A stretch of 20,000 nt of DNA. Origin: an uncultured virus (IMG/VR IMGVR_UViG_3300037067_001926). Its lineage: Duplodnaviria > Heunggongvirae > Uroviricota > Caudoviricetes. The stretch lies in the IMG/VR virus record IMGVR_UViG_3300037067_001926. One strand, written 5' to 3'. The position numbers and the translations under genes are program-made. The notes under the pieces are model-generated. The model was not told where the DNA came from. It saw only the letters and a program-made list of their open reading frames with translations, and made no database searches. Below are positions 5,353 through 20,000 of this stretch, piece after piece (position 1 is the first letter of the stretch; each line of letters opens with the position of its first letter).

Positions 5353-5574
5353 TCACCTCTTCGGCGCTCTTGACTTGGTGCGGCCCTTCGCTCCGCGCTT
5401 AGCGAAGCGTTTGAACGTCTCCGCCAGGAGCGCTCTCTTGGCCTGCTTCCCGCCAGCCGCTTTACCTGCGGCGATCTTCTTCGCACTAGCCTTGCCAAAG
5501 GACCCTGCGGTACCCTTGCGAGCTATCTGTTCCTTGACCCGCTGCATCCAGAACTTCGGTCGCTTGCCTGCCAT
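5353..5574 (-). CDS. Small, very basic Lys/Ala/Arg-rich protein, 73 aa, possible DNA-binding core protein
   Basis: Strong K/R excess with only two acidic residues; GAGG SD; compact fit in the operon. Confidence 0.7.
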   Translation of the reverse strand: MAGKRPKFWMQRVKEQIARKGTAGSFGKASAKKIAAGKAAGGKQAKRALLAETFKRFAKRGAKGRTKSRAPKR

Positions 5575-7161: not shown

Positions 7162-7425
7162 CTATGGAGCGTAACCTGTGTAGCCCGTCTGGCCTGGGTA
7201 AGCCGTGTACCCAGTGTAGCCAGTGAGCCCGCCGTAGCCCGTGTATCCAGTCGGGCCGGTCTCTCCGCGATAGCCCGTATACCCCGAGTACCCAGACGTC
7301 CCGGTGTATCCAGTGACGCCGGAGTATCCAGTGTAGCCAGTGAATGCACCGTACCCGGTATACCCACTAGGCCCGGTCACCCCGACTGTTGCGCCTTCCA
7401 TCGAGTCGGTGTAGGTGTAAGCCAT
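7162..7425 (-). CDS. Small Gly-Tyr-Thr collagen-like repeat protein, 87 aa
   Basis: Almost entirely G-X-Y triplets (GYT/GYS); GGAGG SD; third codon positions vary between repeats. Confidence 0.85.
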   Translation of the reverse strand: MAYTYTDSMEGATVGVTGPSGYTGYGAFTGYTGYSGVTGYTGTSGYSGYTGYRGETGPTGYTGYGGLTGYTGYTAYPGQTGYTGYAP

Positions 7426-7459
7426 GGATCAATCCTCCGTTCCCGTGGACCAATCCACG

Positions 7460-7705
7460 CTATGCTCCTGTGTAACCGGTGTAACCGGTTACACCAGTGT
7501 ATCCAGTGTACCCAGTCGCGCCTTGCGGGCCAGTGTACCCAGAGTACCCGGTGTATCCAGTAGCAGCGGTATAGCCAGTATACCCGGTCGTGCCTGTGTA
7601 GCCGGAGTAGCCAGTATAGCCGCTATACCCGGTAGGCCCTTGAGGGCCGGTATATCCAGTCGGACCTTGCCATCCGACATTCAGGTTGCCGTAGGTGAAT
7701 GCCAT
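7460..7705 (-). CDS. Small Gly-Tyr-Thr collagen-like repeat protein, 81 aa
   Basis: About 23 consecutive triplets with a single G-to-A break; MAFTY start resembles MAYTY of its neighbour. Confidence 0.85.
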
Positions 7706-7716
7706 CGTTTGCCCCC

Positions 7717-7944
7717 TTAAGCCTGGATCAGGCCGAATCCCTTGAACACGGCTGTTCCGCCAGCCCCAGCCGTGGTGCAGACCCAGCCGTAGTAGGTAGC
7801 CCCACCGGCCGCTGGGACAGAGTTAATGACCTCGTCGCCTACGGCGAAGGTGTACTCGTCTTCCGAGGCACCGGGGGCTGCGGTGCCGAAGTAGCGCTTA
7901 CAAGTGTTGCCGCGGATCGGTTCCTCATAGGGTAGAAGTGCCAT
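7717..7944 (-). CDS. Small virion protein, probable capsid decoration, 75 aa
   Basis: Motif AAP...[33 protein letters not shown], familiar as a C-terminal module of phage spike/fibre proteins; GAGGAG SD. Confidence 0.7.
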
Positions 7945-7958
7945 CGCTTAGCTCTCCT

Positions 7959-8390
7959 CTACGAGATGTCCTCAGCCGCAATGCTCATTGTCAGAACGTC
8001 GATGTCGACTTGGCCGGCCGTCAGGGCAGCGCAAGTCGTATCGACCGTGAAGACCGCCTGCACGTCTTGGCCAGCCGAAGTGCCGTTCTTGAAGCACTGG
8101 GTCATCTGGCCGGTGGTGTCAGCCACAGCCTGGAAGATGTCGAAGGCAGCAGAGAATCCAGTTGCGCCCTCAACCGAGCCGCCTACCGATACGGTACAGG
8201 TGCCTACGCCGCCGCCGGTGAACGCCACCGTGGTCTTAACGCGAACGCCCATGACGGCATCCTTGCCGCCAAGCGAGAACAGCGTGATAGTCTGCGACGT
8301 ATCCGCATCGGTCAGGTCAGTGTGGTCGATCGTGAAACGCCGAAGCTGGAAACCAGCGCCAAACGCAATCGGGAATATTGTTTTCTGCAT
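7959..8390 (-). CDS. Probable capsid decoration / spike-base protein, 143 aa (start revised to ATG 8390)
   Basis: Directly follows the capsid gene; GGAG SD 7 nt before the ATG; beta-rich 'VRVKTTVAFTG...VSVG...LTAGQVDIDV'. Confidence 0.7.
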   Translation of the reverse strand: MQKTIFPIAFGAGFQLRRFTIDHTDLTDADTSQTITLFSLGGKDAVMGVRVKTTVAFTGGGVGTCTVSVGGSVEGATGFSAAFDIFQAVADTTGQMTQCFKNGTSAGQDVQAVFTVDTTCAALTAGQVDIDVLTMSIAAEDIS

Positions 8391-8406
8391 GTCAGTTCTC
8401 CCCCTG

Positions 8407-9375
8407 CTAGAAGCTCGCACTCGTGAGCTTGAACATGGTACGGGGGTTAGGCACCACGATGTTGCACCCCACCAACCATTGCCCGGCCACGTCGATGCCG
8501 CCCTGGGATTCCTTGAACCCCGTGAAGCCCCACTGCCACTTCGGGTTCTGGCTGAAGTACCACTCGATGTAGTTGGTGTTCAGGCCGAACATCCTGCCGT
8601 TCGTCCCGGTAGGCATGTACCTGTCGATCACGACCTCAGCAGCGTTGAACCGGAAGGTCTGGAAACCGACCTTGGCCAGATCGCTCTGCGGATCCTGATA
8701 GCGCTGGAGGTGCTGGGTAGCGTTCCAGATCAGGTTCCAGCCATTGACCGTCGCGGGGATCAGGTCCACATGCTCGTTCCCGTAATACGCGTGTGTATAC
8801 GCTGTATTAAGGGATTGGAGCGTGAAGCTGGTAACCGCGTTGGTGTAGGAGTTCAGCCCGCCTACCGTACCGACAGCCATGATGTCGCTGCGCGTGATTC
8901 CGCCGATCGTAGCGTACGTGTTGCCGTCGTCGATCCACTGCTCGAACCCGGTCAGCTCCTTGGCCCGAGCGCCAGTGTCCTGCAAGTACATAGCGGTAGC
9001 CAGCTTCTTGGCCATCGTCATGCCAGCCGCCTGGAAGCCGAGTTCCACTTGGCTGAAGAATGAGAAAGGCCCCTCGTTAATCATGCTGTCCCAGCCGTAC
9101 AGACTGAGGTTGACGAGATACCCTTTCATGTTTACGCGGAGTGCCGTTGCGATGGGGACGTAGTCCAGCACCGCGCCCTCTCCGCGGCCGATCGCCCCAC
9201 CGTTTAACTCACCGTGGATGATCGGACGCCGAATTGCTAGACCACCCAGGAACTTGTCCTGGTTCCTGGTATGCAGCCGCACAAAGACCGGCGAGTTCAG
9301 ATAGACGACTTCAGTCGCCTTCTTGACGAACATGTCGGTGCTATACGCGGTTAAATCTTCGTATGGAAGTGCCAT
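8407..9375 (-). CDS. Major capsid protein (podovirus-type, HK97 fold), 322 aa
   Basis: Size, position after the scaffold, and motifs NSPVFVRL, GGLAIRRPI, LTGFEQW..D, YATIGGITRS, VGFQTFRFNAAEVVID, MFGLNTNYI; GGAGG SD. Confidence 0.9.
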   Translation of the reverse strand: MALPYEDLTAYSTDMFVKKATEVVYLNSPVFVRLHTRNQDKFLGGLAIRRPIIHGELNGGAIGRGEGAVLDYVPIATALRVNMKGYLVNLSLYGWDSMINEGPFSFFSQVELGFQAAGMTMAKKLATAMYLQDTGARAKELTGFEQWIDDGNTYATIGGITRSDIMAVGTVGGLNSYTNAVTSFTLQSLNTAYTHAYYGNEHVDLIPATVNGWNLIWNATQHLQRYQDPQSDLAKVGFQTFRFNAAEVVIDRYMPTGTNGRMFGLNTNYIEWYFSQNPKWQWGFTGFKESQGGIDVAGQWLVGCNIVVPNPRTMFKLTSASF

Positions 9376-9396
9376 CGCCTATCCTCCGTCGCTTAA

Positions 9397-10245
9397 CTAC
9401 TGAACCTTAGCTGCGTGATCCGCCCTGAATTTGTCGAACACCGCCTGCGCAGTCTTCATATCCCCCAGCTTCGCAGTCTTGACCGCTTCGGGTAGATCCG
9501 TCGGCGTCGAGCCTTCGGGCATCCGGCCGTTGTCGAGCTGCCCCAGATACGGAGCCGGCCCGCCCAAGAGACTTGGGTTTCCGCTTGCCGACATCGCCAA
9601 CTCCTGCCTGACCTTCTCTTCTCCACGCTTCTCAGCCGCCGCCAGCTCTTCCTGGTGCTTGGCCTCAGCCGCTGCCCTATCAGCAGCCGCCTTCTCGGCC
9701 CGCCGGGGGGCCATCATCTCGTTCCATGCCTTCTCGGGGTCGTAAATGCCGTGTTCGCTCCCGTACTTCAAGACAGCACCGAGATCCAACTTCTCGCCGA
9801 ACTCCTCCTTGTGCAGCAGGGGGAGAGGTGCGCCCTTCACGAACGCATTCTCGAACCCGGCTGCCAACGTGTTCAGGCTCTTGTTGTGATCCTCAACTGA
9901 GATGAACCCCTTGGTCCGCTCTGCGAGGGCGGCATCAATGTCTTGCTTCGTGGCGACGAAGCCTTCCTTCTGCAACTGTTCCTTGATCTGATCGAACGTC
10001 ATCTCCGTGGCTCCTGCGGCTTCCATCTGTGCTACACGTTCCCTAAGGGCGACCGTCTCCTTGGTGGTTCCAGCGCTGTCGTCGAAATGCTCCTTGCGCC
10101 AGTCTTCCCACCCGGTCAACCGCGTGTCCGCATCCGCGTACGCGGTTTCCAGCTTAGTGACGGTGTCCTTGAGTTGGGGGTATTTTGCGATTACAGCCTT
10201 GTCCTCGTCCGTGACTCCTTCGAGGATCTGGTCAAAGATCGACAT
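9397..10245 (-). CDS. Capsid scaffolding protein, 282 aa
   Basis: Helical, Glu/Lys/Ala-rich, with a low-complexity linker and short C-terminal helix; immediately upstream of the capsid gene. Confidence 0.75.
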   Translation of the reverse strand: MSIFDQILEGVTDEDKAVIAKYPQLKDTVTKLETAYADADTRLTGWEDWRKEHFDDSAGTTKETVALRERVAQMEAAGATEMTFDQIKEQLQKEGFVATKQDIDAALAERTKGFISVEDHNKSLNTLAAGFENAFVKGAPLPLLHKEEFGEKLDLGAVLKYGSEHGIYDPEKAWNEMMAPRRAEKAAADRAAAEAKHQEELAAAEKRGEEKVRQELAMSASGNPSLLGGPAPYLGQLDNGRMPEGSTPTDLPEAVKTAKLGDMKTAQAVFDKFRADHAAKVQ

Positions 10246-10457
10246 AAGCTCCTTACTGTCCTACCGACGGCGGGACAGCCGCCGCAGTTTTGCTAGTACC
10301 ACCGGCAAGGGGGGCTAGAAGCCCCTTAAGGTAGGGGTTGGCGTTCTTGGTTAACTGCACCATATCCGCCACCCATTGTTCGAGTTTTTGCAGCTTGGCT
10401 TCGAAAATCAGCACAACAAGCTCCTTACTGTCCTACCGACGGCGGGACAGCCGCCGC
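10246..10457. repeat. Perfect 40-bp direct repeat (10246-10285 and 10418-10457)
   Basis: AAGCTCCTTACTGTCCTACCGACGGCGGGACAGCCGCCGC occurs twice, 172 bp apart. Confidence 0.97.
10253..10414 (-). CDS. 53-aa mini-paralogue of the 124-aa protein (not in the ORF track)
   Basis: GTG 6 nt after AAGGAG; translates (M)LIFEAKLQKLEQWVADMVQLTKNANPYLKGLLAPLAGGTSKTAAAVPPSVGQ*, homologous to LEAKLRELEQWMADMLSLTNRVHPPLKALLVPMA and ending in the same AAAVPPSVGQ. Confidence 0.75.
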   Translation of the reverse strand: MLIFEAKLQKLEQWVADMVQLTKNANPYLKGLLAPLAGGTSKTAAAVPPSVGQ

Positions 10458-10799
10458 GGCGGGGGTCATGCTCTCGGCCCCGCCCATCATCGGGCTGGGC
10501 TCTTGAGTCCGTTGTCGCAATTCCGCGATCTCGGCCTCGAATGCTTTCCCAATGTTGGCCATGGGGACCAGGAGCGCCTTCAACGGGGGATGAACTCGAT
10601 TGGTGAGGGACAGCATATCTGCCATCCATTGTTCGAGTTCCCTTAGCTTTGCTTCCAACATGCTGACGGGGTCGACCATCGACGGGATGATCGAACGGCC
10701 CATCTGCATCATGGTTGGCTCAGGAGGAGTCGGCTCAGGGGCCGGCTGGCGAACCTCAGGAGGAACCATCGGAGTCGGGGCTTGTGGATAGGCACCCAC
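10425..10799 (-). CDS. Pro/Met-rich pre-scaffold protein with a helical core, 124 aa
   Basis: GTG start with GGAGG upstream; sits in the head operon. Confidence 0.75.
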   Translation of the reverse strand: MGAYPQAPTPMVPPEVRQPAPEPTPPEPTMMQMGRSIIPSMVDPVSMLEAKLRELEQWMADMLSLTNRVHPPLKALLVPMANIGKAFEAEIAELRQRTQEPSPMMGGAESMTPAAAAVPPSVGQ

Positions 10800-10803
10800 T
10801 CGG

Positions 10804-11091
10804 TTAACGCCTCCCTGGCTTGCTCTGCTCCGCTGTGCGGCTGCTCATCGTGAGTGACGCCGCGTTGCCCAAGCCCTTGATGGGGTTCATCCCCAAGGTC
10901 ACACTGTCACCAGTGGACTGGACTTCTCCGCCTTTCCAAGCGGCAGGGGCAGGCGGAACTGGGGAGTGGCCAAGAGGGATGGAGTCTCCGGTGATCTGGA
11001 ACTCGGTACCCTGCGGGCCGGAACCCGGCTCAGCCGTAGCTGGTCCGAAACCTACCGGAAGACTGTCACCTGTCTTCTCAATTTCTGCCAT
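10804..11091 (-). CDS. Hypothetical protein with three TGDS-x-x-x-G-x-x-P repeats, 95 aa
   Basis: GGAGG SD; repeats TGDSLPVGFGP / TGDSIPLGHSP / TGDSVTLGMNP. Confidence 0.8.
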   Translation of the reverse strand: MAEIEKTGDSLPVGFGPATAEPGSGPQGTEFQITGDSIPLGHSPVPPAPAAWKGGEVQSTGDSVTLGMNPIKGLGNAASLTMSSRTAEQSKPGRR

Positions 11092-11102
11092 TCTAGTCCT
11101 CC

Positions 11103-11163
11103 GAAGCGGGCAGTACCTCCCGCTTCAATAACGACACTAAACGATTGGCAGGAATTGCGTCAA
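11103..11163 (-). promoter_or_regulatory. Putative sigma70-type promoter of the head operon with a 5' leader hairpin
   Basis: TTGACG (11163-11158)-18 nt-TAGTGT (11139-11134); 7 nt later an 8-bp hairpin GAAGCGGG/CCCGCTTC abuts the GGAGG SD. Confidence 0.5.
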
Positions 11164-11266
11164 TATGAAGTCAAGTGGTTTGTTGAAGTTGACGCGATGA
11201 AGTGATGGAAAGGATTAGATTCACGGCTGGATGGTGTTGACACTGCTGGTGCGGGGCTTCAGGCGG

Positions 11267-11283
11267 CGTCCGCCGGGCGGACG
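11267..11283 (-). other. GC-rich hairpin just 3' of the last tRNA
   Basis: CGTCCGC-N3-GCGGACG; no U tract, so not called a terminator. Confidence 0.4.
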
Positions 11284-11286
11284 GTT

Positions 11287-11375
11287 TGGAGGAGGGTGGA
11301 GGAATCGAACCCCCACGGTTCATCGCCGTGCCTCCGGGTTCGGACCGGATTGCCGACCATTCAGCGGCACCCTCC
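11287..11375 (-). tRNA. tRNA-Ser(CGA), long variable arm, atypical (8/4-compatible)
   Basis: GGAGGGTG/CACCCTCC acceptor, TCCGG-TCCGAAC-CCGGA anticodon arm, CACGG/CCGTG variable arm, GTTCGATTC T-loop, encoded CCA. Confidence 0.85.
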
Positions 11376-11380
11376 TATAG

Positions 11381-11454
11381 TGGCTGGAGCGCCAAGAGTC
11401 GAACTTGGGTGGCTCGGTTCAAAGCCGAGTGCCTGACCGTTCGGCCACGCTCCA
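11381..11454 (-). tRNA. tRNA-Gln(UUG)
   Basis: TGGAGCG/CGCTCCA acceptor (U1-A72), CTCGG-CTTTGAA-CCGAG, GTTCGAC, GCCA end. Confidence 0.95.
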
Positions 11455-11455
11455 G

Positions 11456-11531
11456 TGGAAGGGCGGGTAGGATTTGAACCTACGATCATCCGGGTCAGAG
11501 CCGGAGGTCTTGGCCGCTAAACGACCGCCCC
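11456..11531 (-). tRNA. tRNA with CUG (Gln) anticodon, atypical acceptor end
   Basis: GGGGCGG/CCGCCCT acceptor, TCCGG-CTCTGAC-CCGGA, GTAGG-TTCAAAT-CCTAC, TCCA end. Confidence 0.9.
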
Positions 11532-11532
11532 G

Positions 11533-11607
11533 TGGCACCAGCCGCGAGGGTCGAACTCGCTATGGACCAGTTTTGGAGACTGTCCGCCTGCCGTTGGCGT
11601 GGCTGGT
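11533..11607 (-). tRNA. tRNA-Trp(CCA), atypical D-arm linker
   Basis: ACCAGCC/GGCTGGT acceptor, CAGT-CTCCAAA-ACTG, GCGAG-TTCGACC-CTCGC, GCCA end. Confidence 0.85.
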
Positions 11608-11611
11608 GAAT

Positions 11612-11688
11612 TGGTCGGGACGGCTGGATTCGGACCAGCGGCCCCCTGTTCCCAAAACAGGTGCGCTACCAGACTGCGCTACGCCCCG
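11612..11688 (-). tRNA. tRNA-Pro(UGG)
   Basis: CGGGGCG/CGTCCCG acceptor, TAGCGCAGTCTGGTAGCGC D-arm, CCTGT-TTTGGGA-ACAGG, ACCA end; T-loop reads TCCGAAT. Confidence 0.93.
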
Positions 11689-11793
11689 ACTGCAATTCTC
11701 TTTACCGCTTCGCGGGCCGTTGAAATATTCCCGCCAGGATTTTAACGGGCGATCCGCCAGAGGAGAGGACCGCCCGCCGACCCCGATCGACTA

Positions 11794-11867
11794 TGGTTGC
11801 GGGGCTCGGACTTGAACCGAGACCTTTGCGTTATGAGCGCAACGAGGTGCCATTCCTCCACCCCGCT
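11794..11867 (-). tRNA. tRNA-Met(CAU), initiator-like
   Basis: AGCGGGG/CCCCGCA acceptor with a 1-72 mismatch, A11-U24, TTGCG-CTCATAA-CGCAA, ACCA end. Confidence 0.9.
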
Positions 11868-11873
11868 ACAAGG

Positions 11874-11902
11874 ATTATGCCATGGGCTTGAGTCGAAGGC
11901 AA
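11874..11902 (-). promoter_or_regulatory. Putative sigma70 promoter for the fMet-to-Ser tRNA run
   Basis: TTGCCT-17 nt-CATAAT with an extended -10 TG; 6 nt from the -10 to tRNA nucleotide 1. Confidence 0.65.
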
Positions 11903-11911
11903 GATCAAAAG

Positions 11912-11986
11912 TGGTGGCCCCGGCGAGATTCGAACTCGCATCGGCGGAGTGAAAGTCCGCTATCCTGCCTGCTAGAAGACAGGGCC
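11912..11986 (-). tRNA. tRNA-Glu(UUC)
   Basis: GGCCCTG/CGGGGCC acceptor, GCGGA-CTTTCAC-TCCGC, GCGAG-TTCGAAT-CTCGC, ACCA end. Confidence 0.93.
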
Positions 11987-11993
11987 ATTGAAC

Positions 11994-12087
11994 TACCGCT
12001 TACGCGGCCGTGGGCGGGGAGCGGATTTCCGTTTCCGTTTGGGCTTGCGCATCCAAACAAGTGGCTTCCGGTAAATCTGCTCCCACG
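11994..12087 (-). ncRNA. Candidate structured RNA of unknown class in the tRNA-Glu leader
   Basis: Nested stems GGGAGC-AGATTT/AAATC-C-GCTCCC and GTTTGG/CCAAAC capped by GC-GCAA-GC, then CCGC-GTAA-GCGG (two GNRA loops). Confidence 0.4.
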
Positions 12088-12090
12088 AGA

Positions 12091-12759
12091 TCATTTCCAC
12101 TCCGGCGCGTTGCAGATCCATTCCGTGCCGGCCGCGGGAGCCTCGAATCTGGCTGGCGGAGTGTCCCACTTCTCGATCACTGCCACATGCGCATACACAT
12201 TGATCGACTTCACCATCCTTTGGAAGGGAGTCAGACCCATCGCCAGCATGTCCGTAGCGTGGATGTCGACGTTCGCGTGGAGGTCCGAGGAGAGCTTCCC
12301 GATCTTGTCCCCAAAGGGGTTGTCTTTACCGAGGATGTCCTCGCAGATGTAGACCCCGCCAGGGGAGAGGTGAGGGAGGATCTTGTCCAGCGTCACGCTC
12401 TGCTGGCCAGGGGTGTGCCCGCCATCGTCAATGAGCACATCGAGCTTCGGAACCAGCGTCTTGAACCAGTCCCAGAAGCGCGGCTCGCCCTGATCCCCGA
12501 TGTAGACCTTGGTCCAATCGTTCTCGTAGCGGGCGCACGCCGGCTGAATGTCAATGCCGTGGACCGTACAGCCTTGACCAAAGTAGTCCCGCCACATCCC
12601 AAGGCTGCCACCACTGTAGATCCCAACCTCAGCCACGTCTACGGCCGTGCCGCGGAACTTGGATAGGTGCCTATCGTAGATTTCGAAGTAGTGACGCCAT
12701 TTCCAAATCCCTGGTCCTGTGGTGTGCGCGTTGAAGTAGTCTTCCAGAGGGTTGCTCAT
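12091..12759 (-). CDS. Class I SAM-dependent methyltransferase, sugar O-methyltransferase-like, 222 aa
   Basis: KWRHYFEIYDRH, EVGIYSGGSLGMWRDYF, GIDI, IGDQ, DVLIDDGGH, LSPGGVYICED. Confidence 0.9.
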   Translation of the reverse strand: MSNPLEDYFNAHTTGPGIWKWRHYFEIYDRHLSKFRGTAVDVAEVGIYSGGSLGMWRDYFGQGCTVHGIDIQPACARYENDWTKVYIGDQGEPRFWDWFKTLVPKLDVLIDDGGHTPGQQSVTLDKILPHLSPGGVYICEDILGKDNPFGDKIGKLSSDLHANVDIHATDMLAMGLTPFQRMVKSINVYAHVAVIEKWDTPPARFEAPAAGTEWICNAPEWK

Positions 12760-13031
12760 TTGCCCTTCTTTGCGTAGAACTCCAAGTGAATCTTATTGAC
12801 GGGGAGAGGTTCGCCTGATTTCTTGCACCGCTTGATGAACTCACGCTCTGCGTAGTTCGGACGTCCTACGGTCACAACCATCTCCGTGGTTCGATCACTC
12901 TTGCGTGGCTTGTGCCGCCGAGTAGCCTTGACCACTTCGGTTGGGCTGATATACCTCGTAGCCCGTCGAGCGCCGCGCATAAGCATAAGCTCAATCACAT
13001 CACCGCAAACTCCGCCTGTCCCGTATATCAT
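12756..13031 (-). CDS. Basic hypothetical protein, 91 aa (start revised to ATG 13031)
   Basis: ATGA overlaps at both ends; AGGAG SD 7 nt before the ATG. Confidence 0.7.
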   Translation of the reverse strand: MIYGTGGVCGDVIELMLMRGARRATRYISPTEVVKATRRHKPRKSDRTTEMVVTVGRPNYAEREFIKRCKKSGEPLPVNKIHLEFYAKKGK

Positions 13032-14818
13032 CTCGCTTCTCCTTTCCCGCCCGCTTGGCGGACGGCCCACACGCTTGGCCAGCTCTCACCCTTCTCCTGG
13101 TGGAAGTCTGGCAACAACTCCGTCCTGAATCCCAAGTCGATGAAATCTGATTCCTGCCAGAGCGATACGTGGTCCTGGCTTGGGATGTCCTCCTCCACGC
13201 CTTCGCGGTGGTTCTGCAAGGTCTTCTCCAAAGGACCGAAGACCACCACTTTGTTCTTGCACCGCTCCAGCAGCGCCAGTGCATCGTCCTTGGGTATATG
13301 CTCCAGCACGTCTGCCAGAAGAACTACGTCGTAATCCTCTACCGGGAAGCTCCTCACGTCGGCGCAATAAAAGTTCACTTTCTTCGATACCCAGAACTTC
13401 CGCTTCGCCTTGTCGATGTACGGCTGGTAGACCTCAACGTGGTCCAACTGAGCGCACTGCAAAGCAGGGAGTTGAATGGCCAGCCCGCTCTCCCCCGGCC
13501 CTATCCCTACGTTGAGAACTTTCTTGTCAGCTACGTCACCCAGCCTCGGCCGGAGGTCTACGCAGGGGTGAACCTGCGGGTAGCCCCAGCTCACCATGAA
13601 GTGATGGTAGGCCACCGTCTGATCCGTGAACCGCTCCCACTTGTCCTGGTGGTTGTACGGCGTGAACACGTCTGAATTGTAGAGCTTAACCCCATGCTCA
13701 GCCGGGCCCATCCCATAGATGGTTTCTGTGAGGACTTGCACTGAACTCTCGAAGTTCTTGTCATCATCTCCGCGGAACTTGGTCTGCACGATCTGGAGGC
13801 ATTGTCCGAGGACTGGGTGCTTGGGCTCAGCCCCAATGACACCGTTCCCGACCCAGCCATTCCACTCCAAGCCGGCGAACAGGCGATCGGTCCTGAACTC
13901 GTCAGGGATTGGCTTCAGAAGCTCCACGTCAGCGTCGAAGTAGACACCACCATAGTTGTACAGGTAGAACAGCTTGAAGAAGTCGACAGCCTTGACCCAC
14001 CGCTTCGCGGCCAAGGCAGCCTCCACGTATGCGATCCCTCTGGGGATGTCTTCCAAGGTGACTACCTTGTACTCCCATCCTTTGGTGAACTCCCGCTGCG
14101 ATGCGATGCAGTTCTCAACGAGCGGAGGCATAGGCGTGTCACCAAGCCAGAAGGTGAACGCTTTGCGGGGGATGCGCGGCCGGCTGAAGTTCTGGCGAAT
14201 GGGGAATCCGAACTCTTTGCTGCGAGCCTCCAGGAGAGCCCGGTCACGAGCGTTGCTCTCAGGATCATACGCTAAGCGGTATACCGGGTCGGTATTCACG
14301 TCTTCCGGTTTGAACCCAGTCTGGATCGGATGATCGTGGTAGACTTTGGCCTCTTCGCAGAAGACGTACTTGTTGGCTTGGCGGCAACGCTCAGTTAACT
14401 CGCTGTCGCAGCAGATATGCTTGTACCCTGGGTGGAAGAAGTTGCCACCAAGCATAGGCAGTAGCTTCCTCGATCCGACCCAATGTAGAGCCAGTTCACC
14501 ATGCCAGTACCCATCCGCCAGCCCAATTAGCCCATCCATCTCCGGGAACCACTTCTGCATGGCCTCCATCGCAATTCGGAGCCAGCCTTGCTGTGGCACA
14601 CAATCGTTCCCAGTGAATGCTACGAAGTCGCCCTTAGCTTCTGCTACGCACTCGGAGAGTACCGTTGGACATCCAAGGTTGAAGGGTGGCCACTCGTCAT
14701 ACTTCACGATTACTTCGTGTGGCCACTCGGCAGTTTCAGGGATCAGCTTCAGGAGCCGGTCCAGCTTCTCAGGTCGACCGAGGCTGGGGACACAGACGCT
14801 GACGAGGGGCTTGTCCAT
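13028..14818 (-). CDS. Multidomain GT2-like + GT32 (DXD) glycosyltransferase + SAM methyltransferase, 596 aa
   Basis: VSVCVPSLGR...AKGDFVAFTGND...DSELTER (GT2-like); IPRKAFTFWLG...LYNYGGVYFDADVE (GT32); KVLNVGIGPG...YDVVLLADVLEH (methyltransferase). Confidence 0.85.
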   Translation of the reverse strand: MDKPLVSVCVPSLGRPEKLDRLLKLIPETAEWPHEVIVKYDEWPPFNLGCPTVLSECVAEAKGDFVAFTGNDCVPQQGWLRIAMEAMQKWFPEMDGLIGLADGYWHGELALHWVGSRKLLPMLGGNFFHPGYKHICCDSELTERCRQANKYVFCEEAKVYHDHPIQTGFKPEDVNTDPVYRLAYDPESNARDRALLEARSKEFGFPIRQNFSRPRIPRKAFTFWLGDTPMPPLVENCIASQREFTKGWEYKVVTLEDIPRGIAYVEAALAAKRWVKAVDFFKLFYLYNYGGVYFDADVELLKPIPDEFRTDRLFAGLEWNGWVGNGVIGAEPKHPVLGQCLQIVQTKFRGDDDKNFESSVQVLTETIYGMGPAEHGVKLYNSDVFTPYNHQDKWERFTDQTVAYHHFMVSWGYPQVHPCVDLRPRLGDVADKKVLNVGIGPGESGLAIQLPALQCAQLDHVEVYQPYIDKAKRKFWVSKKVNFYCADVRSFPVEDYDVVLLADVLEHIPKDDALALLERCKNKVVVFGPLEKTLQNHREGVEEDIPSQDHVSLWQESDFIDLGFRTELLPDFHQEKGESWPSVWAVRQAGGKGEAR

Positions 14819-15084
14819 TAGGAGTCCTCACCTTTGCTGTCTCGCTCATACTCCAGCCTAAGGTGTTCCCCATTAGACGTGTAGTGAACGTGCTCGGAAA
14901 GCCACTTGTTGAATTCTTGAGTGAACTCCTCTTCGGTTATTAGCCTCTGAGAATGCGGGTCCTCATCATCGCGCTTGCGGGTATGCGTGTACCACCCAAC
15001 CGTGGAGAAGTACTTAGCAAGATAGAATCGCTCAGAGTCCTGACCGCACAGCGTACAGCGCAGGTAGACCCCATTGTCAGCCAT
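14818..15084 (-). CDS. Hypothetical protein with an N-terminal CxxC, 88 aa
   Basis: Overlaps both neighbours; AAGGAG SD; CTLC plus C-terminal His residues. Confidence 0.7.
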   Translation of the reverse strand: MADNGVYLRCTLCGQDSERFYLAKYFSTVGWYTHTRKRDDEDPHSQRLITEEEFTQEFNKWLSEHVHYTSNGEHLRLEYERDSKGEDS

Positions 15085-17497
15085 TCATCCACTCCTTGTA
15101 CTCCAGCTCCATCAACCACTGCGGGATCTGCATGGTCCGCGTACCGCTGTCTACGATCAAGTTATCCCAGGCCGAACCCGCGTCAATGCAGCTAATCGTC
15201 TGTTCCCGCGCCAACAGATTCGCTATCCAGACCTTCGCCGGCATCCCGCCACAGAATACGAATGTCGCCCCTGGCTTAACGTGCCACATCAACTGTTCCC
15301 TGATCGCATCGTACTGCTCGAACGCATTAACTAGCGGGATCTCCACGAAGTCAGCCTTCAGCATGGTTGCCACGGGCTTGAGCCGCGCTGGGCCAACGAA
15401 GGTCTTTGGCGCTTCCGCTTCGCGGACAGCTCCCCAGAACTCCTTTACTGCATGGAAGTCCTGATCTACCCGGTGGAGAAGGCTGTTGTAGAACCTCTGA
15501 TCCCCGAAGGGGACTACGTTGACCACCACGCGGCCGTTGTCCCTCTTCTCACTCATCTTCTCCAGTTGCCAGAAGGCGGTCTTGAGTTTTTGCCCAAGTT
15601 CAGATGAGTATAAGTGACCATCGCAGTTTGCGCCAGTGGCACCGGCCATGCACGCTTCTTCTCCATCCCCCTTCTTAATGAATGAAATTGGGAGGCCCTT
15701 ACGCACGCAATCAGTGAGATATCCAAGCAGAGGATTACCCGGCTGCTCCTGCCGACGCTTGTGCCAGATTGACGTTTCCACACCGTCTGGTTCTCCGAGC
15801 GTCGATCGCACTGCGGAAACTACGCCCGGCCACGTACCCCAGTCGTGCCCACACAAGGTCCCCCCTGGCCGCACTTTGTTGGACCATGCTGCTATGTCCT
15901 TGATTACGCTGCATTCATCATGGCTACCGTCGAGGAATAGCATATCGAAGTATCCGTCAGGGAACTCCTTCGCGGCTTCCAGGCTGTCCGCCCGGCGGAC
16001 AACGAGGTTTGTGCAGTCCTTCGTATTCTCGCTGAACTGGCGGAAGATGCTGTCTGGATCGGCCTTCGCTTCGGCGTGCTGGATGTCCTCTCCAACGGAC
16101 CCGGAGAAGTGGTCTACGGCGAACACCGTGCCGCCGCCGTACTTCGCGGCACCAGTGCAGAGCGCGTGTGTGGACCGGCCTTTCCACGATCCGACTTCGA
16201 GGATCCGCTTCTTGTTCTTCGCGTTCTCGAACAGCCATGTGAGTTCAGGGAACACCATCCACCCTTCAATGTGCTTGTCCCCGTACTCGTAGTAGAACTG
16301 CGTATCGCGGAGAAACTCCTCATTGAAGGGCTCATACCGCAGCGCCTCCATGAGGTGATGCCTTGCTCCGGCCACGTCACCCATCCAGCCTTTGGCGTAG
16401 TATAGGTAGGCGTGCGGGCCGGCGCGATAGTCGCGCACCTGATTAGCGTAGAAGGGATGCCACGGAATCTCCAACGATGCCGCAGCGTAGGCCGCGGACG
16501 CGGAGTGATTCGACCGCTTGCGATAGTACTCAGCGTGCCGCAGCAGCGCTTCGCGGCGAGTCGGATCGGTGAAGAACGCCCGGCTGTACCATTCGAGCTG
16601 AGCACTGTCATCGCCGATTAGCCCGTAGGCGTCTCCCAGGAAGATCATCGACTGCGCCCGCTCGGCGGGCCACGCATTCATGTCGACGTGTTCCTTCAAG
16701 ACCTTAATGGCAGACTTCGGCCGGCCGGTCCAGAGCAGCTCACGGCCGAGGTAATGTAGCTGCCGGTCCCTGTTTCCAGCAGGATCCTCAGTCAGCTTGA
16801 TCCATGCGTCCCACCCCAACCCCGGCAGGTAGTTCGCCCGGTGCGCTCTCGGCTCTTGCCAATGCTCAAGATGGAAGATATTGGGTTGTACGAAGAGATG
16901 GTTTGGGCCATCTTCCTGCCTTGGCGGAATGTTTGGAATAGGGGTGATGACCTCGTGTACCGCACCCCGCCACTCGATTCTGCTGCGTCTGTAGAACTTG
17001 CTTTGGGTGAAAGCGACCGCCGGGGTTACCCCGTCGGGGTTATGCGCGAAGACGAAGTCGTACTCCAAGTGTTCCAGCCTTGGGTCGGCTATGATCTCCG
17101 CGATCTTGTCGAGATCCAGCGCGGTAAACGCCTCGTCTGCATCAGCCCAGCATACCCAGTCATTCGTGGCTAGACTTGCACAGAAGTTCCGTGCCGCGGC
17201 GAAGTCGAACAGCCGGCTGCCGTCCTGAACGATTGGCGGTTCGCCTCCGTCTACGAATCGCTGATTGATGGAATCGGCCAAGTCAGCGTCAATGGTGCGC
17301 ATGAAGCGCTCGTCAACTTCGGTGACTTCCGCTCCGCGGGCGCGGAAAACCTCCACCGAATTGTCGCTTGAGCCCGTGTCGACGACGACTACCCGCCCAC
17401 CACAAGCCTGGAAAGCAGCGAGGGAATCCATCAGCCGCGGGATAGTATTGGCCATATCCCGACAGATGCAGAGCACATCGAACGAAGGAGTTGTCAC
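15077..17497 (-). CDS. Multidomain GT2 + TPR + SAM methyltransferase + GT-D-fold-like protein, 806 aa
   Basis: VVVDTGSSDNS, FDFAAARN, WADADE, WRGAVHE (GT2); YLGREL, YSRAFFTDPTRREAL (TPR); LEVGSWKGRST, FLDGSHD, KVRPGGTLCGHD (methyltransferase); SFIKKGDGE...GMPAK...IDAGSAWD (GT-D/DUF1792-like). Confidence 0.88.
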   Translation of the reverse strand: MTTPSFDVLCICRDMANTIPRLMDSLAAFQACGGRVVVVDTGSSDNSVEVFRARGAEVTEVDERFMRTIDADLADSINQRFVDGGEPPIVQDGSRLFDFAAARNFCASLATNDWVCWADADEAFTALDLDKIAEIIADPRLEHLEYDFVFAHNPDGVTPAVAFTQSKFYRRSRIEWRGAVHEVITPIPNIPPRQEDGPNHLFVQPNIFHLEHWQEPRAHRANYLPGLGWDAWIKLTEDPAGNRDRQLHYLGRELLWTGRPKSAIKVLKEHVDMNAWPAERAQSMIFLGDAYGLIGDDSAQLEWYSRAFFTDPTRREALLRHAEYYRKRSNHSASAAYAAASLEIPWHPFYANQVRDYRAGPHAYLYYAKGWMGDVAGARHHLMEALRYEPFNEEFLRDTQFYYEYGDKHIEGWMVFPELTWLFENAKNKKRILEVGSWKGRSTHALCTGAAKYGGGTVFAVDHFSGSVGEDIQHAEAKADPDSIFRQFSENTKDCTNLVVRRADSLEAAKEFPDGYFDMLFLDGSHDECSVIKDIAAWSNKVRPGGTLCGHDWGTWPGVVSAVRSTLGEPDGVETSIWHKRRQEQPGNPLLGYLTDCVRKGLPISFIKKGDGEEACMAGATGANCDGHLYSSELGQKLKTAFWQLEKMSEKRDNGRVVVNVVPFGDQRFYNSLLHRVDQDFHAVKEFWGAVREAEAPKTFVGPARLKPVATMLKADFVEIPLVNAFEQYDAIREQLMWHVKPGATFVFCGGMPAKVWIANLLAREQTISCIDAGSAWDNLIVDSGTRTMQIPQWLMELEYKEWMNG

Positions 17498-17503
17498 CCG
17501 TCC

Positions 17504-17533
17504 ATTCTACGGACTTTGCTTGTGCCTTGGCAA
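17504..17533 (-). promoter_or_regulatory. Putative sigma70 promoter for the glycosylation operon (leaderless)
   Basis: TTGCCA-18 nt-TAGAAT, then 6 nt, then the GTG start; no clear SD. Confidence 0.6.
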
Positions 17534-17540
17534 GCCTAAT

Positions 17541-17981
17541 CTATTCACCGTCAGCGAAAACTGCGTCATCTGCCGCCCACGGATAGCCCGTTGTGGGGGT
17601 CACCACATTCGAGACGATCGTGTAGTCCTCCCCAGGGAAGGCCCGAACCCCATTGCGATGGATGACGGCATTGTTGCGTACCCCTTCGGGGAGGGGGTAG
17701 GAGCCTGCCCCGTCCCTTGCGAGCCGCACGTTCCAGTGGCGCACCGCGGCCGTCTGCGGGGCAGCGGACAGAACTCCACCAGCTAGGTTCAGCCCAGTCC
17801 CTACAGCCACCGTAGAGCACCGTTTGGTGGCGTCGAACCCCACAAGGCCAGGGCCGGCCGACGGAGCCTGGATCTGGTTCAGGGCAACCGCGGTTGCAGC
17901 GTTGCCCTTCACGGCTGCCCACAGGACGGCCAGGAAAGCCACGACTAGGCTGAAGAATCCACGTCTTGTTCTCATGCCCAT
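17541..17981 (-). CDS. Protein with a signal-peptide-like N-terminus and a fibre-like C-terminal module, 146 aa
   Basis: TRRGFF followed by a hydrophobic stretch and Ala-rich cleavage region; C-terminal RNGVRAFPGEDYTIVSNVVT. Confidence 0.75.
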   Translation of the reverse strand: MGMRTRRGFFSLVVAFLAVLWAAVKGNAATAVALNQIQAPSAGPGLVGFDATKRCSTVAVGTGLNLAGGVLSAAPQTAAVRHWNVRLARDGAGSYPLPEGVRNNAVIHRNGVRAFPGEDYTIVSNVVTPTTGYPWAADDAVFADGE

Positions 17982-17984
17982 CTC

Positions 17985-19391
17985 CTATTCGTATATTACG
18001 GTGACCGCTGCGTTATGATTGGCAATGACTAAGCACAGACCCGTGGAGAACGGGATACCCATTAGGTCATAGGAAGCTGGGAGGTAACTGTTCTGTACCG
18101 GATATGCGATCGTCAACTGTGCGAGCACGGTTCCCGCAGAGGTTAGGCCGTCATAGATCGAGATAACGGCACCACTGTCCGCCACTGAACCTACAAGAAG
18201 GCTGTGGAGATTCCCCGGCCCATACTTTAGCACAGCCCCAGCGGTGGTAGTTGACCTGAAGGCGGATGTTGGCTGGGTGAGCATTGCTCCAAGCCGGCTG
18301 ATGGACGCCACACGGCACGACAGAGTATTGGAGGTCTGGAGCGCTGAGGAGTTCACTGTTTCCGCGAAGATGTGGAAGTTCATCGTATCGGACCAGGTCG
18401 CAGCACTGGCCGATACCGAATGAAGAACGTGTCCGTCCACCCCCCAGTAGACCCTACCGTTGGTCCAGTAGATTTCGTAGGTTACATATCCGGTGCCAGG
18501 GTTATAGGACGCTCCGAGCGTACCGTTAAACGTGGTGACCACGGTGGGGGATCCGTTGGACTTCTGGTATGCTACTCCAAACGTAGTCCCAGCAAGCTGG
18601 AACCACGCCCCGTCAGTCACGGTGATGGTTGCAGGCATTGCCGACCCGTAACCCACTCCCCACCGGCGGGTGTTGTTGGCAGCAGCGGCGCTCAGTGAGA
18701 TCCCAGCGCGGTAGCGCATGGCGTTGGCCGAGACGTATCGGGCTCGCCGCAAGGATGTAAGTCTAGCCGCACCATTGGCCGCGGTTGTGGCCGTGTCGAG
18801 AGTCACCTGGGCGTTGGCCTGGGTCACCGTGCCTGAGTTTGCTACCGTGGAAACCCAGAAGTTGGGGTCCACCGCTCCGGCGTTGCCCACACCGTCGAAC
18901 TGCGCACCCACCAATCGCGTCGGCTGGATGGCCCGCATCTCACCCATGGGGGTATTCGAGGCCACGAATCCATAGCCGTCCTTAAGCCCCTTTAGAGCCA
19001 CCTGTAGAAACCCATTCTCATCCAGCGACCGCGGGACCGCCTCCACGATTGGGCACTGCACGGTGTCGATCGTGACTGTAGCCTGCGCACCAGAACTGTT
19101 CAGAGCCCGTACTCGGACGTAGGCCGCTACAGCCTGAATCGTTATTCCGAACTGACACGTGGTGAGGTAGATGTATGTGTCGGTACACTCGAAAGTGTTG
19201 CTTTCCCGGCCCTGGTCAACATATATCGTAAGGTTCCTGTCGGACTTTACCACCACCTGAATCGCGTTAACGCCAAGCGTCGACGCCCCAAGCCCAGCAC
19301 TGTTCCAGGTTACTCCGTTGTCGATTGTTCCGGCGTAGCTGTTTGCCGTGTCAGCCGTTACGCTTTGAGATATCGAAGGAAAGTACGACAT
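17985..19391 (-). CDS. Probable virion surface protein with a lectin/ConA-like domain, 468 aa
   Basis: Thr/Ala/Ser/Gly- and beta-rich; GAWFQL...YEIYWTNGRVYWGVDG; C-terminal IYDG..AGTVL...GIPFSTGL module. Confidence 0.65.
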   Translation of the reverse strand: MSYFPSISQSVTADTANSYAGTIDNGVTWNSAGLGASTLGVNAIQVVVKSDRNLTIYVDQGRESNTFECTDTYIYLTTCQFGITIQAVAAYVRVRALNSSGAQATVTIDTVQCPIVEAVPRSLDENGFLQVALKGLKDGYGFVASNTPMGEMRAIQPTRLVGAQFDGVGNAGAVDPNFWVSTVANSGTVTQANAQVTLDTATTAANGAARLTSLRRARYVSANAMRYRAGISLSAAAANNTRRWGVGYGSAMPATITVTDGAWFQLAGTTFGVAYQKSNGSPTVVTTFNGTLGASYNPGTGYVTYEIYWTNGRVYWGVDGHVLHSVSASAATWSDTMNFHIFAETVNSSALQTSNTLSCRVASISRLGAMLTQPTSAFRSTTTAGAVLKYGPGNLHSLLVGSVADSGAVISIYDGLTSAGTVLAQLTIAYPVQNSYLPASYDLMGIPFSTGLCLVIANHNAAVTVIYE

Positions 19392-19400
19392 TGCATCCCC

Positions 19401-20000
19401 CTATATAATGAACCAGTTCGTTGCGTCAGTGAAGACGCTCATTGTAGTGTTGTGCGCGATGATCGTCTTCGTCGCCTCTCCGTCGATGGTGGCTCCCCCT
19501 GTCGTAGCCACCGTTACCACAATGCCGTTGGCCGCAATGTGCTTTATGTGGTAGACCTTCCCCTGGAGGCCAGCCGTAGCCGGCAACGTCAGAGTGATTG
19601 CAGCATTGGCGAGGACTAGATTGTCCTCACCAGTGAGAGTGTAATCTACAACCTTTGTCACTACTGCGGTCGATACCCCGCCAATCGAACAAATCACATT
19701 CCCTGTGGCTGGAGCGCTGAGCACCACTACCAGTTCATTGGTGTCAGTATGAGTAATTGAAGCAGGAGCGATCACTGCGCGGGAGGAGTCTATGACCTGT
19801 ACGATTGGATAGGCCCCGAAGCCATGGGTTACCGTGATCGTGTCCGTGGACGTGAACGGGGTGACCTTGGCACAGCTGATACCGCTTACCCCTGGATCTC
19901 CCTGGCCTCCAGTATACCCGGTGTAGCCAGTATAGCCAGTGTACCCGGTAAACGCCCCCAGCCCAGTATATCCTGTATAGCCTGTCACCTGAGGCCCGGT
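19401..20000 (-). CDS. GYT collagen-like fibre protein, 3' part (frame open past the window edge)
   Basis: Reads ...[13 protein letters not shown] with no upstream stop; then ITVTHGFGAYPIVQVID and DYTLT..D..VLAN..ITLTLP...IDG...TNWFII modules typical of phage fibres. Confidence 0.85.
   Translation of the reverse strand, partial: TGPQVTGYTGYTGLGAFTGYTGYTGYTGYTGGQGDPGVSGISCAKVTPFTSTDTITVTHGFGAYPIVQVIDSSRAVIAPASITHTDTNELVVVLSAPATGNVICSIGGVSTAVVTKVVDYTLTGEDNLVLANAAITLTLPATAGLQGKVYHIKHIAANGIVVTVATTGGATIDGEATKTIIAHNTTMSVFTDATNWFII

What the first reader, a model, noticed from the sequence alone, without database searches (positions are those of the whole stretch)
7162..20000. Candidate virion glycosylation system: Gly-Tyr-Thr repeat proteins plus multidomain glycosyl/methyltransferases
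Seen: three genes with G-Y-(T/S) triplet arrays (7162-7425 and 7460-7705 beside the capsid genes, 19401->20000 a fibre) flank a block encoding four glycosyltransferase-like and three methyltransferase domains. Known: Thr-rich collagen-like proteins such as Bacillus BclA are O-glycosylated, GT2-TPR enzymes can modify proteins, GT-D (DUF1792) extends glycans on streptococcal serine-rich adhesins, and some mycobacteriophages glycosylate their virions. Inference: the GYT tracts are dense acceptors on which these enzymes build a methyl-capped glycan coat for the phage particle.
Basis: partly seen in the sequence, partly recalled or inferred. Interest (0 to 1): 0.85.

Follow-up and report, generated by a model that had tools for sequence, protein, structure and literature searches.

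The report
Phage sugar-coat enzymes and capsid whiskers
An uncultured short-tailed phage encodes a seven-domain set of sugar-adding and sugar-methylating enzymes plus two tiny collagen-like Gly-Tyr-Thr proteins in its capsid genes and a Gly-Tyr-Thr fibre, and related phages carry enzymes and repeats together, so it probably sugar-coats its own particle, though no chemistry has shown this.

Summary
Three genes carry Gly-Tyr-Thr/Ser collagen-like tracts, and the block 12091-17497 encodes four glycosyltransferase and three methyltransferase domains. The 806-aa enzyme is GT2-TPR (homologous to C. difficile SgtA, folds like SunS), then a MeT1-like O-methyltransferase, then GT-D. The 596-aa enzyme is GT2-GT32-methyltransferase; the 222-aa enzyme is a sugar O-methyltransferase homologue.

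Independent assortment was not seen. All 17 near-complete viral records found through the enzyme carry collagen-like tracts. Among 48 phage clusters sharing this capsid, 45 have neither nearby. Thr-type repeats go with GT2-TPR and Ser-type repeats with a different GT2 (17/0/0/18). One relative has the same pair of tiny GYT genes after the cement-protein gene; another fuses the tail onto the neighbouring gene.

Against: many GYT loci show no such enzyme nearby, most records are fragments, and nothing is biochemical.

Best reading: phage-encoded O-glycosylation of Thr in virion collagen tracts (0.72), probably extended and methyl-capped (0.5). Not found in print. This scan reported the enzyme-collagen pairing and the Ser cassette before on other DNA; what this window adds is the capsid-operon micro-acceptors and a within-lineage test.

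The parts
7162..7425 (-). 87-aa GYT micro-protein: short N-terminal leader plus Gly-X-Y tract; putative acceptor
   Evidence: positional counterpart of the 36-aa gene in relative L434
7460..7705 (-). 81-aa GYT micro-protein, no charged residue, 27% Ser+Thr; modelled as a staggered homotrimer; putative acceptor
   Evidence: positional counterpart of the 38-aa gene in L434
7717..7944 (-). 75-aa capsid-operon protein of unknown family; its homologue in L433 carries a fused C-terminal GYT tail
   Evidence: Atlas: unnamed viral clusters
7959..8390 (-). capsid cement/decoration protein (jelly-roll); likely start ATG 8390
   Evidence: fold matches Pam1 7eel Z 10.6, KHP40 trimeric cement 7dou Z 10.2, GP4 8h89 Z 9.7; RBS
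8407..9375 (-). major capsid protein, podovirus type
   Evidence: NF033394 106.5 bits, cut-off 80; phrog_9953
12091..12759 (-). 222-aa SAM-dependent O-methyltransferase, sugar-methylase-like; fused to the 596-aa enzyme in relative L320
   Evidence: PF13578; 3ssm E 1e-14, demethylmacrocin O-methyltransferase 8ia9 E 3e-13
13028..14818 (-). 596-aa GT2 + GT32 (DxD) + methyltransferase; putative chain extension
15077..17497 (-). 806-aa GT2 (1-235) - TPR (236-404) - O-methyltransferase (405-582) - GT-D (588-804); putative initiating protein O-glycosyltransferase with extension and capping domains
19401..20000 (-). C-terminal end of a fibre gene with a GYT stalk, cut by the window end; putative acceptor

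Best explanation
A phage-encoded cytoplasmic O-glycosylation pathway for its own virion proteins. (1) The GT2-TPR domain of the 806-aa enzyme puts a first sugar (GlcNAc by analogy with SgtA and GmaR; donor not shown) on Thr, and some Ser, in the Y position of Gly-Tyr-Thr tracts. (2) The GT-D, second GT2 and GT32 domains extend it. (3) The three methyltransferases O-methylate or cap the chain. Acceptors are the fibre stalk and two micro-proteins of the capsid operon, which trimerise as short triple helices and probably stand on the head as glycosylated whiskers. The sugars likely both stabilise these charge-free, Pro-poor helices and form a surface coat. Shown: domain identities, SgtA homology, co-occurrence, gene order, a trimer model. 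Inferred: catalysis, donor, chain, order of steps, virion location, purpose. Step 1 on virion tracts 0.72; steps 2-3 on the same glycan about 0.5; micro-proteins on the capsid about 0.6.
For: Homology: GT2-TPR aligns with the gene directly upstream of C. difficile bclA3 (SgtA; BLASTP 22% over 340 columns, E 4e-14; profile 108.6 bits). Top folds SunS/ThuS (Z 21.3); sequence hit to GmaR E 3e-15. Co-occurrence: 41 of 60 enzyme-ascertained clusters of at least 12 kb have G-Y/F-T tracts, against 0 of 13 methyltransferase-only clusters; 17 of 17 enzyme-ascertained records at least 90% complete have a collagen-like tract. Capsid-ascertained relatives: 45 of 48 clusters have neither locally, 2 have both, 1 has Ser-type repeats with other GTs. 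Thr/Ser split 17/0/0/18, held at whole-record level (0 of 28; 0 of 42). L434 has the same two tiny GYT genes, L433 the fused tail. Domains are reshuffled into single ORFs: 73 of 99 complete GT2-TPR ORFs are fused to one or more of the other domains. No membrane segment in the three enzymes (max 19-residue hydropathy 1.29). Trimer model score 0.44 against best control 0.01 (mark reached by 21 of 30 solved pairs and 0 of 23 single chains; runs agree in at least 92% of contacts, pLDDT at least 63; one-residue stagger; may be recalled from solved collagens). Literature: SgtA adds beta-O-GlcNAc to Thr of BclA3 collagen peptides (PMC7157674); (Gly-Pro-Thr)10 becomes triple-helical only when glycosylated (PMC11923368).
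Against: No biochemistry, proteomics or virion structure. The converse is weak: only 9 of 24 searched GYT-bearing records have a match (25 of 49 were not held), and 45 Thr-type clusters of at least 10 kb lack the enzyme locally, only 3 showing weak or broken hits to a broader profile. 19 of 60 long enzyme clusters lack aromatic tracts locally. Counts are not corrected for kinship, and within the capsid lineage there are only about 2-3 concordant events on a quick tree. The Ser-type GT was defined from the one Ser-type relative, so that cell is circular in the capsid set. SgtA identity is low. Distant GT2-TPR homologues in phages PaBG and NCTB go with ordinary charged collagens that hold few Thr triplets. 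The micro-proteins have no recognised capsid-binding or trimerisation domain. SgtA also accepts Ser (PMC7157674), so the Thr/Ser split may reflect cassette history rather than specificity.
Confidence: 0.72

Rival explanations
1. Linkage only: the GYT genes and the transferases travel in one cassette, the tracts are unmodified Tyr-rich adhesive fibres, and the enzymes have another target.
For: Median distance of the nearest tract to the enzyme is 1.4 kb and 59 of 61 are on the same strand, so co-inheritance is expected. Many GYT loci lack the enzyme nearby.
Against: Tracts occur in several non-adjacent genes per genome and far from the enzyme: three genes 12 kb apart here, three in L433, more than 10 kb away in several complete records. 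A tail is added to a capsid-operon gene whose homologues in enzyme-less relatives have none. The enzyme is an SgtA homologue.
Confidence: 0.1
2. The enzymes modify host surface polysaccharide (LPS, capsule) for receptor masking or superinfection exclusion.
For: GT32/Caps_synth and GT2 families act on polysaccharides. The PaBG homologue is annotated as a LOS beta-1,4-glucosyltransferase (an annotation, not a test).
Against: No transmembrane segment in the three enzymes and no translocase gene recognised in the window. The TPR-bearing GT2 matches protein and peptide transferases. This reading does not predict the Thr/Ser-specific pairing.
Confidence: 0.07
3. The enzymes glycosylate and methylate phage DNA against restriction.
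For: Phage GTs are known DNA hypermodifiers (PMC12619734 and PMC10202952, passages). PHROG labels the MT24 domain's family 'DNA methyltransferase' (phrog_2675).
Against: Best folds are SunS, MeT1 and GalT1/DUF1792, not DNA enzymes. The genes lie among structural genes. No base-modifying partner is recognised in the window; the rest of the genome was not available.
Confidence: 0.04
4. Tyr, not Thr, is the main acceptor (tyrosine O-glycosylation, as in some S-layer proteins; recalled, from no call).
For: Tyr fills 46% of X positions in Thr-type and 37% in Ser-type tracts, unusual for phage collagens (absent from E. coli prophage collagens, PMC3368898).
Against: Tyr is common to both tract types while the enzyme changes with the third residue. 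Relatives with GPT/GAT tracts and no Tyr keep the enzyme. SgtA uses Thr/Ser.
Confidence: 0.07

Closest known systems
SgtA-BclA3 of Clostridioides difficile (PMC7157674)
   Same: GT2-TPR enzyme, homologous over the GT2 and TPR parts, paired with a Thr-rich Gly-X-Y protein displayed on a particle surface.
   Different: Phage virion rather than spore; Gly-Tyr-Thr rather than GPT/GAT; acceptors of 81-87 aa in the capsid operon; enzyme fused to a methyltransferase and GT-D, with a second GT2-GT32-MT enzyme. The BclA3 chain-extending enzymes were not found in that paper.
Mycobacteriophage virion glycosylation (Che8; Freeman et al. 2023, seen only as cited in PMC12619734, PMC11256854 and PMC10877033)
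   Same: Phage-encoded glycosyltransferases put glycans on virion proteins.
   Different: There the acceptors are the C-termini of the major capsid and tail-tube subunits. Here they are dedicated repeat tracts with 10-14 G-Y-T/S sites per micro-protein. Enzyme homology was not tested.
GmaR (Listeria flagellin GlcNAc transferase, PMC9638930) and SunS/ThuS glycocin S-glycosyltransferases
   Same: GT2 plus TPR architecture; best sequence and fold matches.
   Different: Different acceptors (flagellin; bacteriocin peptides); no antirepressor domain here.
GT-D / DUF1792 (GalT1) of streptococcal serine-rich adhesin glycosylation (PMC6493773 passage)
   Same: Fold (5v4a Z 15.1, rmsd 3.1, 180 aligned), profile hit to 4phr E 6.7e-7, invariant Asp-Gly-Glu.
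   Different: Fused behind a GT2-TPR initiating enzyme and a methyltransferase in a phage; donor and acceptor unknown.
Chlorovirus A64R and Mimivirus glycosylation (PMC4691112 passages)
   Same: Virus-encoded GT-methyltransferase fusions and methylated virion glycans; Mimivirus collagen-like proteins are glucosylated.
   Different: Eukaryotic giant viruses; Mimivirus L230 links glucose to hydroxylysine; no homology was tested.

Membership tests
SgtA/BclA3-type collagen O-glycosylation | GT2 domain followed by TPRs, homologous to SgtA | tested here: met
   BLASTP E 4e-14, 22% over 340 columns; profile 108.6 bits; DxD at 119-121 conserved
SgtA/BclA3-type collagen O-glycosylation | Linked Gly-X-Thr collagen-like acceptor gene | tested here: met
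   three GYT genes within 2-8 kb of the enzyme gene; recurrent in relatives
SgtA/BclA3-type collagen O-glycosylation | Transfers beta-O-GlcNAc from UDP-GlcNAc to Thr/Ser | not testable with these tools
   needs an enzyme assay
SgtA/BclA3-type collagen O-glycosylation | Acceptor is a spore exosporium protein of a spore-forming bacterium | tested here: not met
   context is a podovirus capsid/tail gene block: it works like SgtA-BclA3 but is not that system
GT-D (DUF1792, PF08759/PF22882) | GT-D fold with Asp-X-Glu metal motif | tested here: met
   5v4a Z 15.1 over residues 588-789; 4phr E 6.7e-7; DGE invariant in 23 of 23
GT-D (DUF1792, PF08759/PF22882) | Pfam model match | tested here: inconclusive
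   no hit for the window's protein; 11 of 14 aligned members hit PF22882 weakly, best E 0.0012
Collagen triple helix | Gly at every third residue | tested here: met
   runs of 12+11 triplets (81 aa) and 4+15+3 (87 aa); PF01391 above cut-off
Collagen triple helix | Three chains staggered by one residue | tested here: inconclusive
   model only: 0.44 against best control 0.01, interfaces 11-77, 13-79, 12-78; may be recalled from solved collagens
Mycobacteriophage-type virion glycosylation | Glycan on the C-terminus of capsid/tail-tube subunits | not testable with these tools
   needs virion glycoproteomics; primary paper not held
Mycobacteriophage-type virion glycosylation | Homologous glycosyltransferases | not tested
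   no direct comparison with the Che8 enzymes was made; the tblastn of residues 1-404 against cultured phages listed 8 records, none a mycobacteriophage
Phage DNA-hypermodifying glycosyltransferases | DNA-acting GT with a base-modifying partner | tested here: inconclusive
   best folds are protein/peptide transferases; no partner in 20 kb, rest of genome not held

The most novel reading that the evidence does not exclude
Phages have evolved purpose-built glycan carriers: 36-88-aa genes in the capsid operon that are little more than a docking leader and a Gly-Tyr-Thr triple helix. A phage-encoded multi-domain assembly line loads them with extended, O-methyl-capped glycans, so the head carries a brush of glycopeptide whiskers. 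Two exchangeable codes exist (Gly-Tyr-Thr with GT2-TPR, Gly-Tyr-Ser with a TPR-less GT2), and in both the sugar, stacked on Tyr, replaces hydroxyproline as the helix stabiliser.
Probability: 0.35. Interest if true: 0.88.

Novelty: new variant of a known kind. Interest (0 to 1): 0.68.

Why it matters
Virion glycosylation in bacteriophages is reported for mycobacteriophages (as cited in PMC12619734 and PMC11256854), and phage glycosyltransferases are often assumed to act on DNA or the host surface. This locus names both enzyme and acceptor, and the acceptor is an 81-aa protein that can be co-expressed or synthesised, so the question is directly testable without growing the phage. If true, it shows a widespread environmental route to glycosylated phage heads and fibres. 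It offers a test of glyco-threonine stabilisation in natural Pro-poor, charge-free collagens. It would also supply soluble multi-domain enzymes that initiate, extend and cap O-glycans on a simple repeat, including the kind of extension step not found for BclA3.

Tried and rejected
No whole genome is held for the window, so sugar-donor genes and a DNA-modification partner outside the 20 kb could not be checked. Single-sequence scans of viral contigs with the capsid protein and the 806-aa enzyme found no close relative; alignments were needed. A -1 frameshift fusing the 75-aa gene to the 81-aa gene was considered, since the frame is open from 7822. It was set aside: the 81-aa gene has its own RBS, no canonical slippery heptamer is evident by eye, and L434 has stop-separated genes in the same places. 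An assembly error there is unlikely (contig piece 7262-8583 with no differences, possibly the source sample). No RNA holder was listed. The promoter/terminator scan gave nothing above shuffles. The 75-aa protein stayed unassigned: Pfam weak only, Atlas lead PTL_trimer 0.85, a lead only. The cement alignment had no sequence hit in PDB. tblastn of the L433 GYT fibre against cultured phages gave no match, probably owing to the low-complexity filter. The first bclA3 pattern found nothing; a second found it. A strict script for tiny GYT ORFs missed the known L434 and L171 cases, so its list is not a census. The careful tree did not finish; the quick tree is used. The Freeman 2023 paper is not held. 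No paper supplements were read; those of the cited papers may bear on the comparisons.
Full report
Setting. The window is part of a podovirus-like phage, with all genes on the - strand. The major capsid protein is 8407-9375 (NF033394, 106.5 bits), an SU10-adaptor gene lies at 4702-5346, and five tRNA genes lie at 11381-11986. No whole genome is held. Four of five genome-bin contigs with this capsid type are labelled Acidobacteriota, a weak host hint.

Repeats. The 87-aa (7162-7425), 81-aa (7460-7705) and open fibre (19401->20000) genes hold 10, 14 and 6 G-Y-T/S triplets. Almost every triplet uses different codons (9 of 10, 13 of 14, 6 of 6), and 100 shuffles gave at most 3 triplets per 90 aa against 14 observed. 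Both small genes have G-rich RBSs. The 81-aa protein has no charged residue, 5% Pro and 27% Ser+Thr. Three copies fold as a one-residue-staggered trimer: score 0.44 against best control 0.01; the mark was reached by 21 of 30 solved pairs and 0 of 23 single chains; contact agreement at least 92%, pLDDT at least 63. This may be recalled from solved collagens. The two genes follow capsid, a cement-fold protein (Pam1 Z 10.6, KHP40 Z 10.2, GP4 Z 9.7) and a 75-aa protein of unknown family.

Enzymes. The 806-aa model is confident (pLDDT 93.5). Residues 1-324 match SunS (Z 21.3), 403-585 match MeT1 (Z 22.2) and 588-789 match DUF1792/GT-D (Z 15.1). A profile of the last domain hits GalT1 at E 6.7e-7, with Asp-Gly-Glu invariant in 23 of 23. 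The family profile hits GmaR at E 3e-15. I fetched the gene directly upstream of C. difficile bclA3, which fits the paper's description of SgtA. It aligns at 22% over 340 columns (E 4e-14) and scores 108.6 bits against the GT2-TPR profile, while the Ser-type GT2 below is not listed. The 596-aa protein is GT2 (26 of 26 homologues hit PF00535), GT32 and MT25. The 222-aa protein matches 3ssm and demethylmacrocin O-methyltransferase and is fused to the 596-aa homologue in L320. That MeT1 and 3ssm (MycE) methylate sugars is recalled, not from a call. Of 99 complete GT2-TPR ORFs outside the genome-contig set, 73 are fused to one or more of these other domains in varying combinations, which argues for one pathway. 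None of the three enzymes has a membrane segment.

Enzyme-first test. The family has 179 hits among the 8000 candidates scored. I kept the best 77 viral, 80 genome and 80 metagenome loci. Of 62 viral loci with GT2 and TPR in one ORF, 38 had aromatic G-x-T/S tracts within the locus, 7 had other Thr/Ser-rich tracts and 17 had none. The 24 without aromatic tracts were searched whole: 14 of 24 had a collagen-like match, including 8 of 8 that are at least 90% complete. Completeness was seen only for the loci sent; among them 17 of 17 near-complete enzyme-ascertained records have a tract, some of GPT type. After merging overlapping loci, 41 of 60 clusters of at least 12 kb are Thr-type, against 0 of 13 methyltransferase-only clusters (one of those, L231, has a non-aromatic Thr-rich collagen). 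In genome contigs 41 of 64 GT2-TPR loci have a Thr/Ser-rich collagen within the fetched locus, mostly GPT/GAT, the SgtA-BclA3 arrangement.

Capsid-first test. Eighty viral loci were found by capsid alone. Of 48 clusters, 45 have neither enzyme nor aromatic tract locally, 2 have both, and 1 has Gly-Tyr-Ser tracts. Fifty of the 80 were searched whole. The GT2-TPR part occurs in 3 records: G069, G005, and G004, a fragment of the same phage as G005 that ends before the tracts. Collagen-like matches occur in 6: many in G069, G005 and G095, and one or two weak ones in G053, G078 and G090. None of the 15 near-complete records has GT2-TPR, and 13 of them have no collagen match. L434 (G005) has two stop-separated GYT genes of 38 and 36 aa right after its homologue of the 75-aa gene, as in the window. 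L433 (G069) has the GYT tail fused to that homologue. Homologues in enzyme-less relatives show no tail (the middle of that output was cut). On a quick tree of 54 rows, L431 (87% complete, neither) is sister to L433/L430/L434, the window joins them at support 87, and G095 sits among three complete records with neither. That is about 2-3 joint events, not dozens. An unrelated phage (L171, phrog_371 capsid) also has a 119-aa GYT-tailed gene just after its capsid gene, with the enzyme 4 kb on.

Thr/Ser split. G095 carries several GYS proteins followed by a 348-aa TPR-less GT2, a 156-aa protein, a B12 radical-SAM enzyme and a GT2-MT24 protein; the 348-aa family is almost wholly viral. In repeat-ascertained clusters that have either enzyme, Thr-type goes with GT2-TPR 17 times and Ser-type with the 348-aa GT2 18 times, with no cross cases (Fisher 2e-10, uncorrected for kinship; Thr clusters could gain flank from enzyme-ascertained loci). 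Over all 374 non-genome clusters: 182 Thr-type (62 GT2-TPR, 0 other) and 64 Ser-type (19 other, 0 GT2-TPR). Whole records: 0 of 28 Ser-type have the GT2-TPR part (1 near-complete); 0 of 42 GT2-TPR records have the other GT2 (19 near-complete), while 2 of 8 Ser-type records without a local hit do. Tyr is common to both types (46% and 37% of X positions) while the enzyme follows the third residue, which points to Thr/Ser as acceptor.

Against. The repeat does not predict the enzyme well. Only 9 of 24 searched GYT records match (2 of 2 near-complete; 25 of 49 not held). Forty-five Thr-type clusters of at least 10 kb lack it locally, with 3 weak or broken hits to a broader profile; several are giant-virus bins by their contig names. 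Among cultured phages only distant homologues exist (8 records, under 32% identity). DSL-LC01 has GPT collagens upstream, but PaBG and NCTB have none within 12 kb and only charged collagens with few Thr elsewhere (one locus each was read). Linkage alone could produce part of the signal (median distance 1.4 kb). Nothing here is chemistry.

Mechanism. Most likely the TPR-bearing GT2 places a first sugar on Thr of the tracts in the cytoplasm before assembly, the GT-D, GT2 and GT32 domains extend it, and the methyltransferases cap or decorate it. Glycosylation probably lets these helices fold and yields a dense surface coat; which benefit is selected is unknown.

Literature seen. PMC7157674: abstract and passages, including Tables 1-2. 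PMC11923368, PMC3368898, PMC6493773, PMC9638930, PMC4691112, PMC12619734, PMC10202952, PMC10877033, PMC11256854: passages. Freeman 2023: not held, seen only as cited. Searches listed no paper that, by title and abstract start or the passages read, describes a phage GT2-TPR/collagen pair or Gly-Tyr-Thr/Ser repeats; the library lacks most subscription papers. Earlier AI notes of this scan describe the SgtA-like pairing many times, the Ser cassette and its exclusion of Thr-type fibres. I re-derived these independently but do not count the notes as support.

Verdict. A real feature and a new variant of a known kind: an SgtA-like protein O-glycosylation system moved onto a phage virion, with micro-acceptors in the capsid operon and fused extension and capping domains. 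Confidence 0.72 for the core, interest 0.68.

Noticed in passing
window 11381-11986: Five tRNA genes (Gln x2, Pro, Met, Glu) between the enzyme block and the scaffold/capsid genes; the surrounding 11100-12000 stretch looks as if it holds further tRNA-like sequences that ARAGORN did not call.
   Followed up: no
L489:4891-19504 (G095): A complete relative with the same capsid family carries Gly-Tyr-Ser collagen-like proteins and a different enzyme set (TPR-less GT2, 156-aa protein, B12 radical-SAM, GT2-MT24), plus a second GT/MT cluster elsewhere (L491).
   Followed up: yes
L171:5491-5850: In an unrelated phage a 119-aa protein with a C-terminal GYT tail follows the capsid gene; L242:555-884 has a similar one.
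   Followed up: partly
L422, L428, L436, L438, L444: The capsid gene appears in two ORF pieces in several relatives, possibly an intron or insertion.
   Followed up: no
L434:11920-12280: Right after the two tiny GYT genes lies a stretch whose translation resembles a transposon-protein zinc-ribbon remnant (resemblance recalled, not tested).
   Followed up: no
window 12756-13070 and 14818-15084: Two small genes of unknown function (104 and 88 aa) sit inside the enzyme block; the 104-aa one has a homologue in an enzyme-less relative (L455).
   Followed up: no
window 17985-19391: 468-aa Ser/Thr-rich (21%) protein with a weak GH16/lectin-like match (E 0.0019) between the fibre and the enzyme; it could be a further acceptor or a receptor-binding protein.
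   Followed up: partly
window 5353-5574: 73-aa very basic Lys/Arg/Ala-rich protein among the tail genes, possibly a DNA-binding core protein.
   Followed up: no
L646 (phage PaBG) and L647 (phage DSL-LC01): Cultured phages with distant GT2-TPR homologues (profile 160 and 153 bits); DSL-LC01 has GPT-rich collagens just upstream, PaBG does not.
   Followed up: partly
L479-L483: Four of five genome-bin contigs with this capsid family are labelled Acidobacteriota, a weak hint at the host group.
   Followed up: partly
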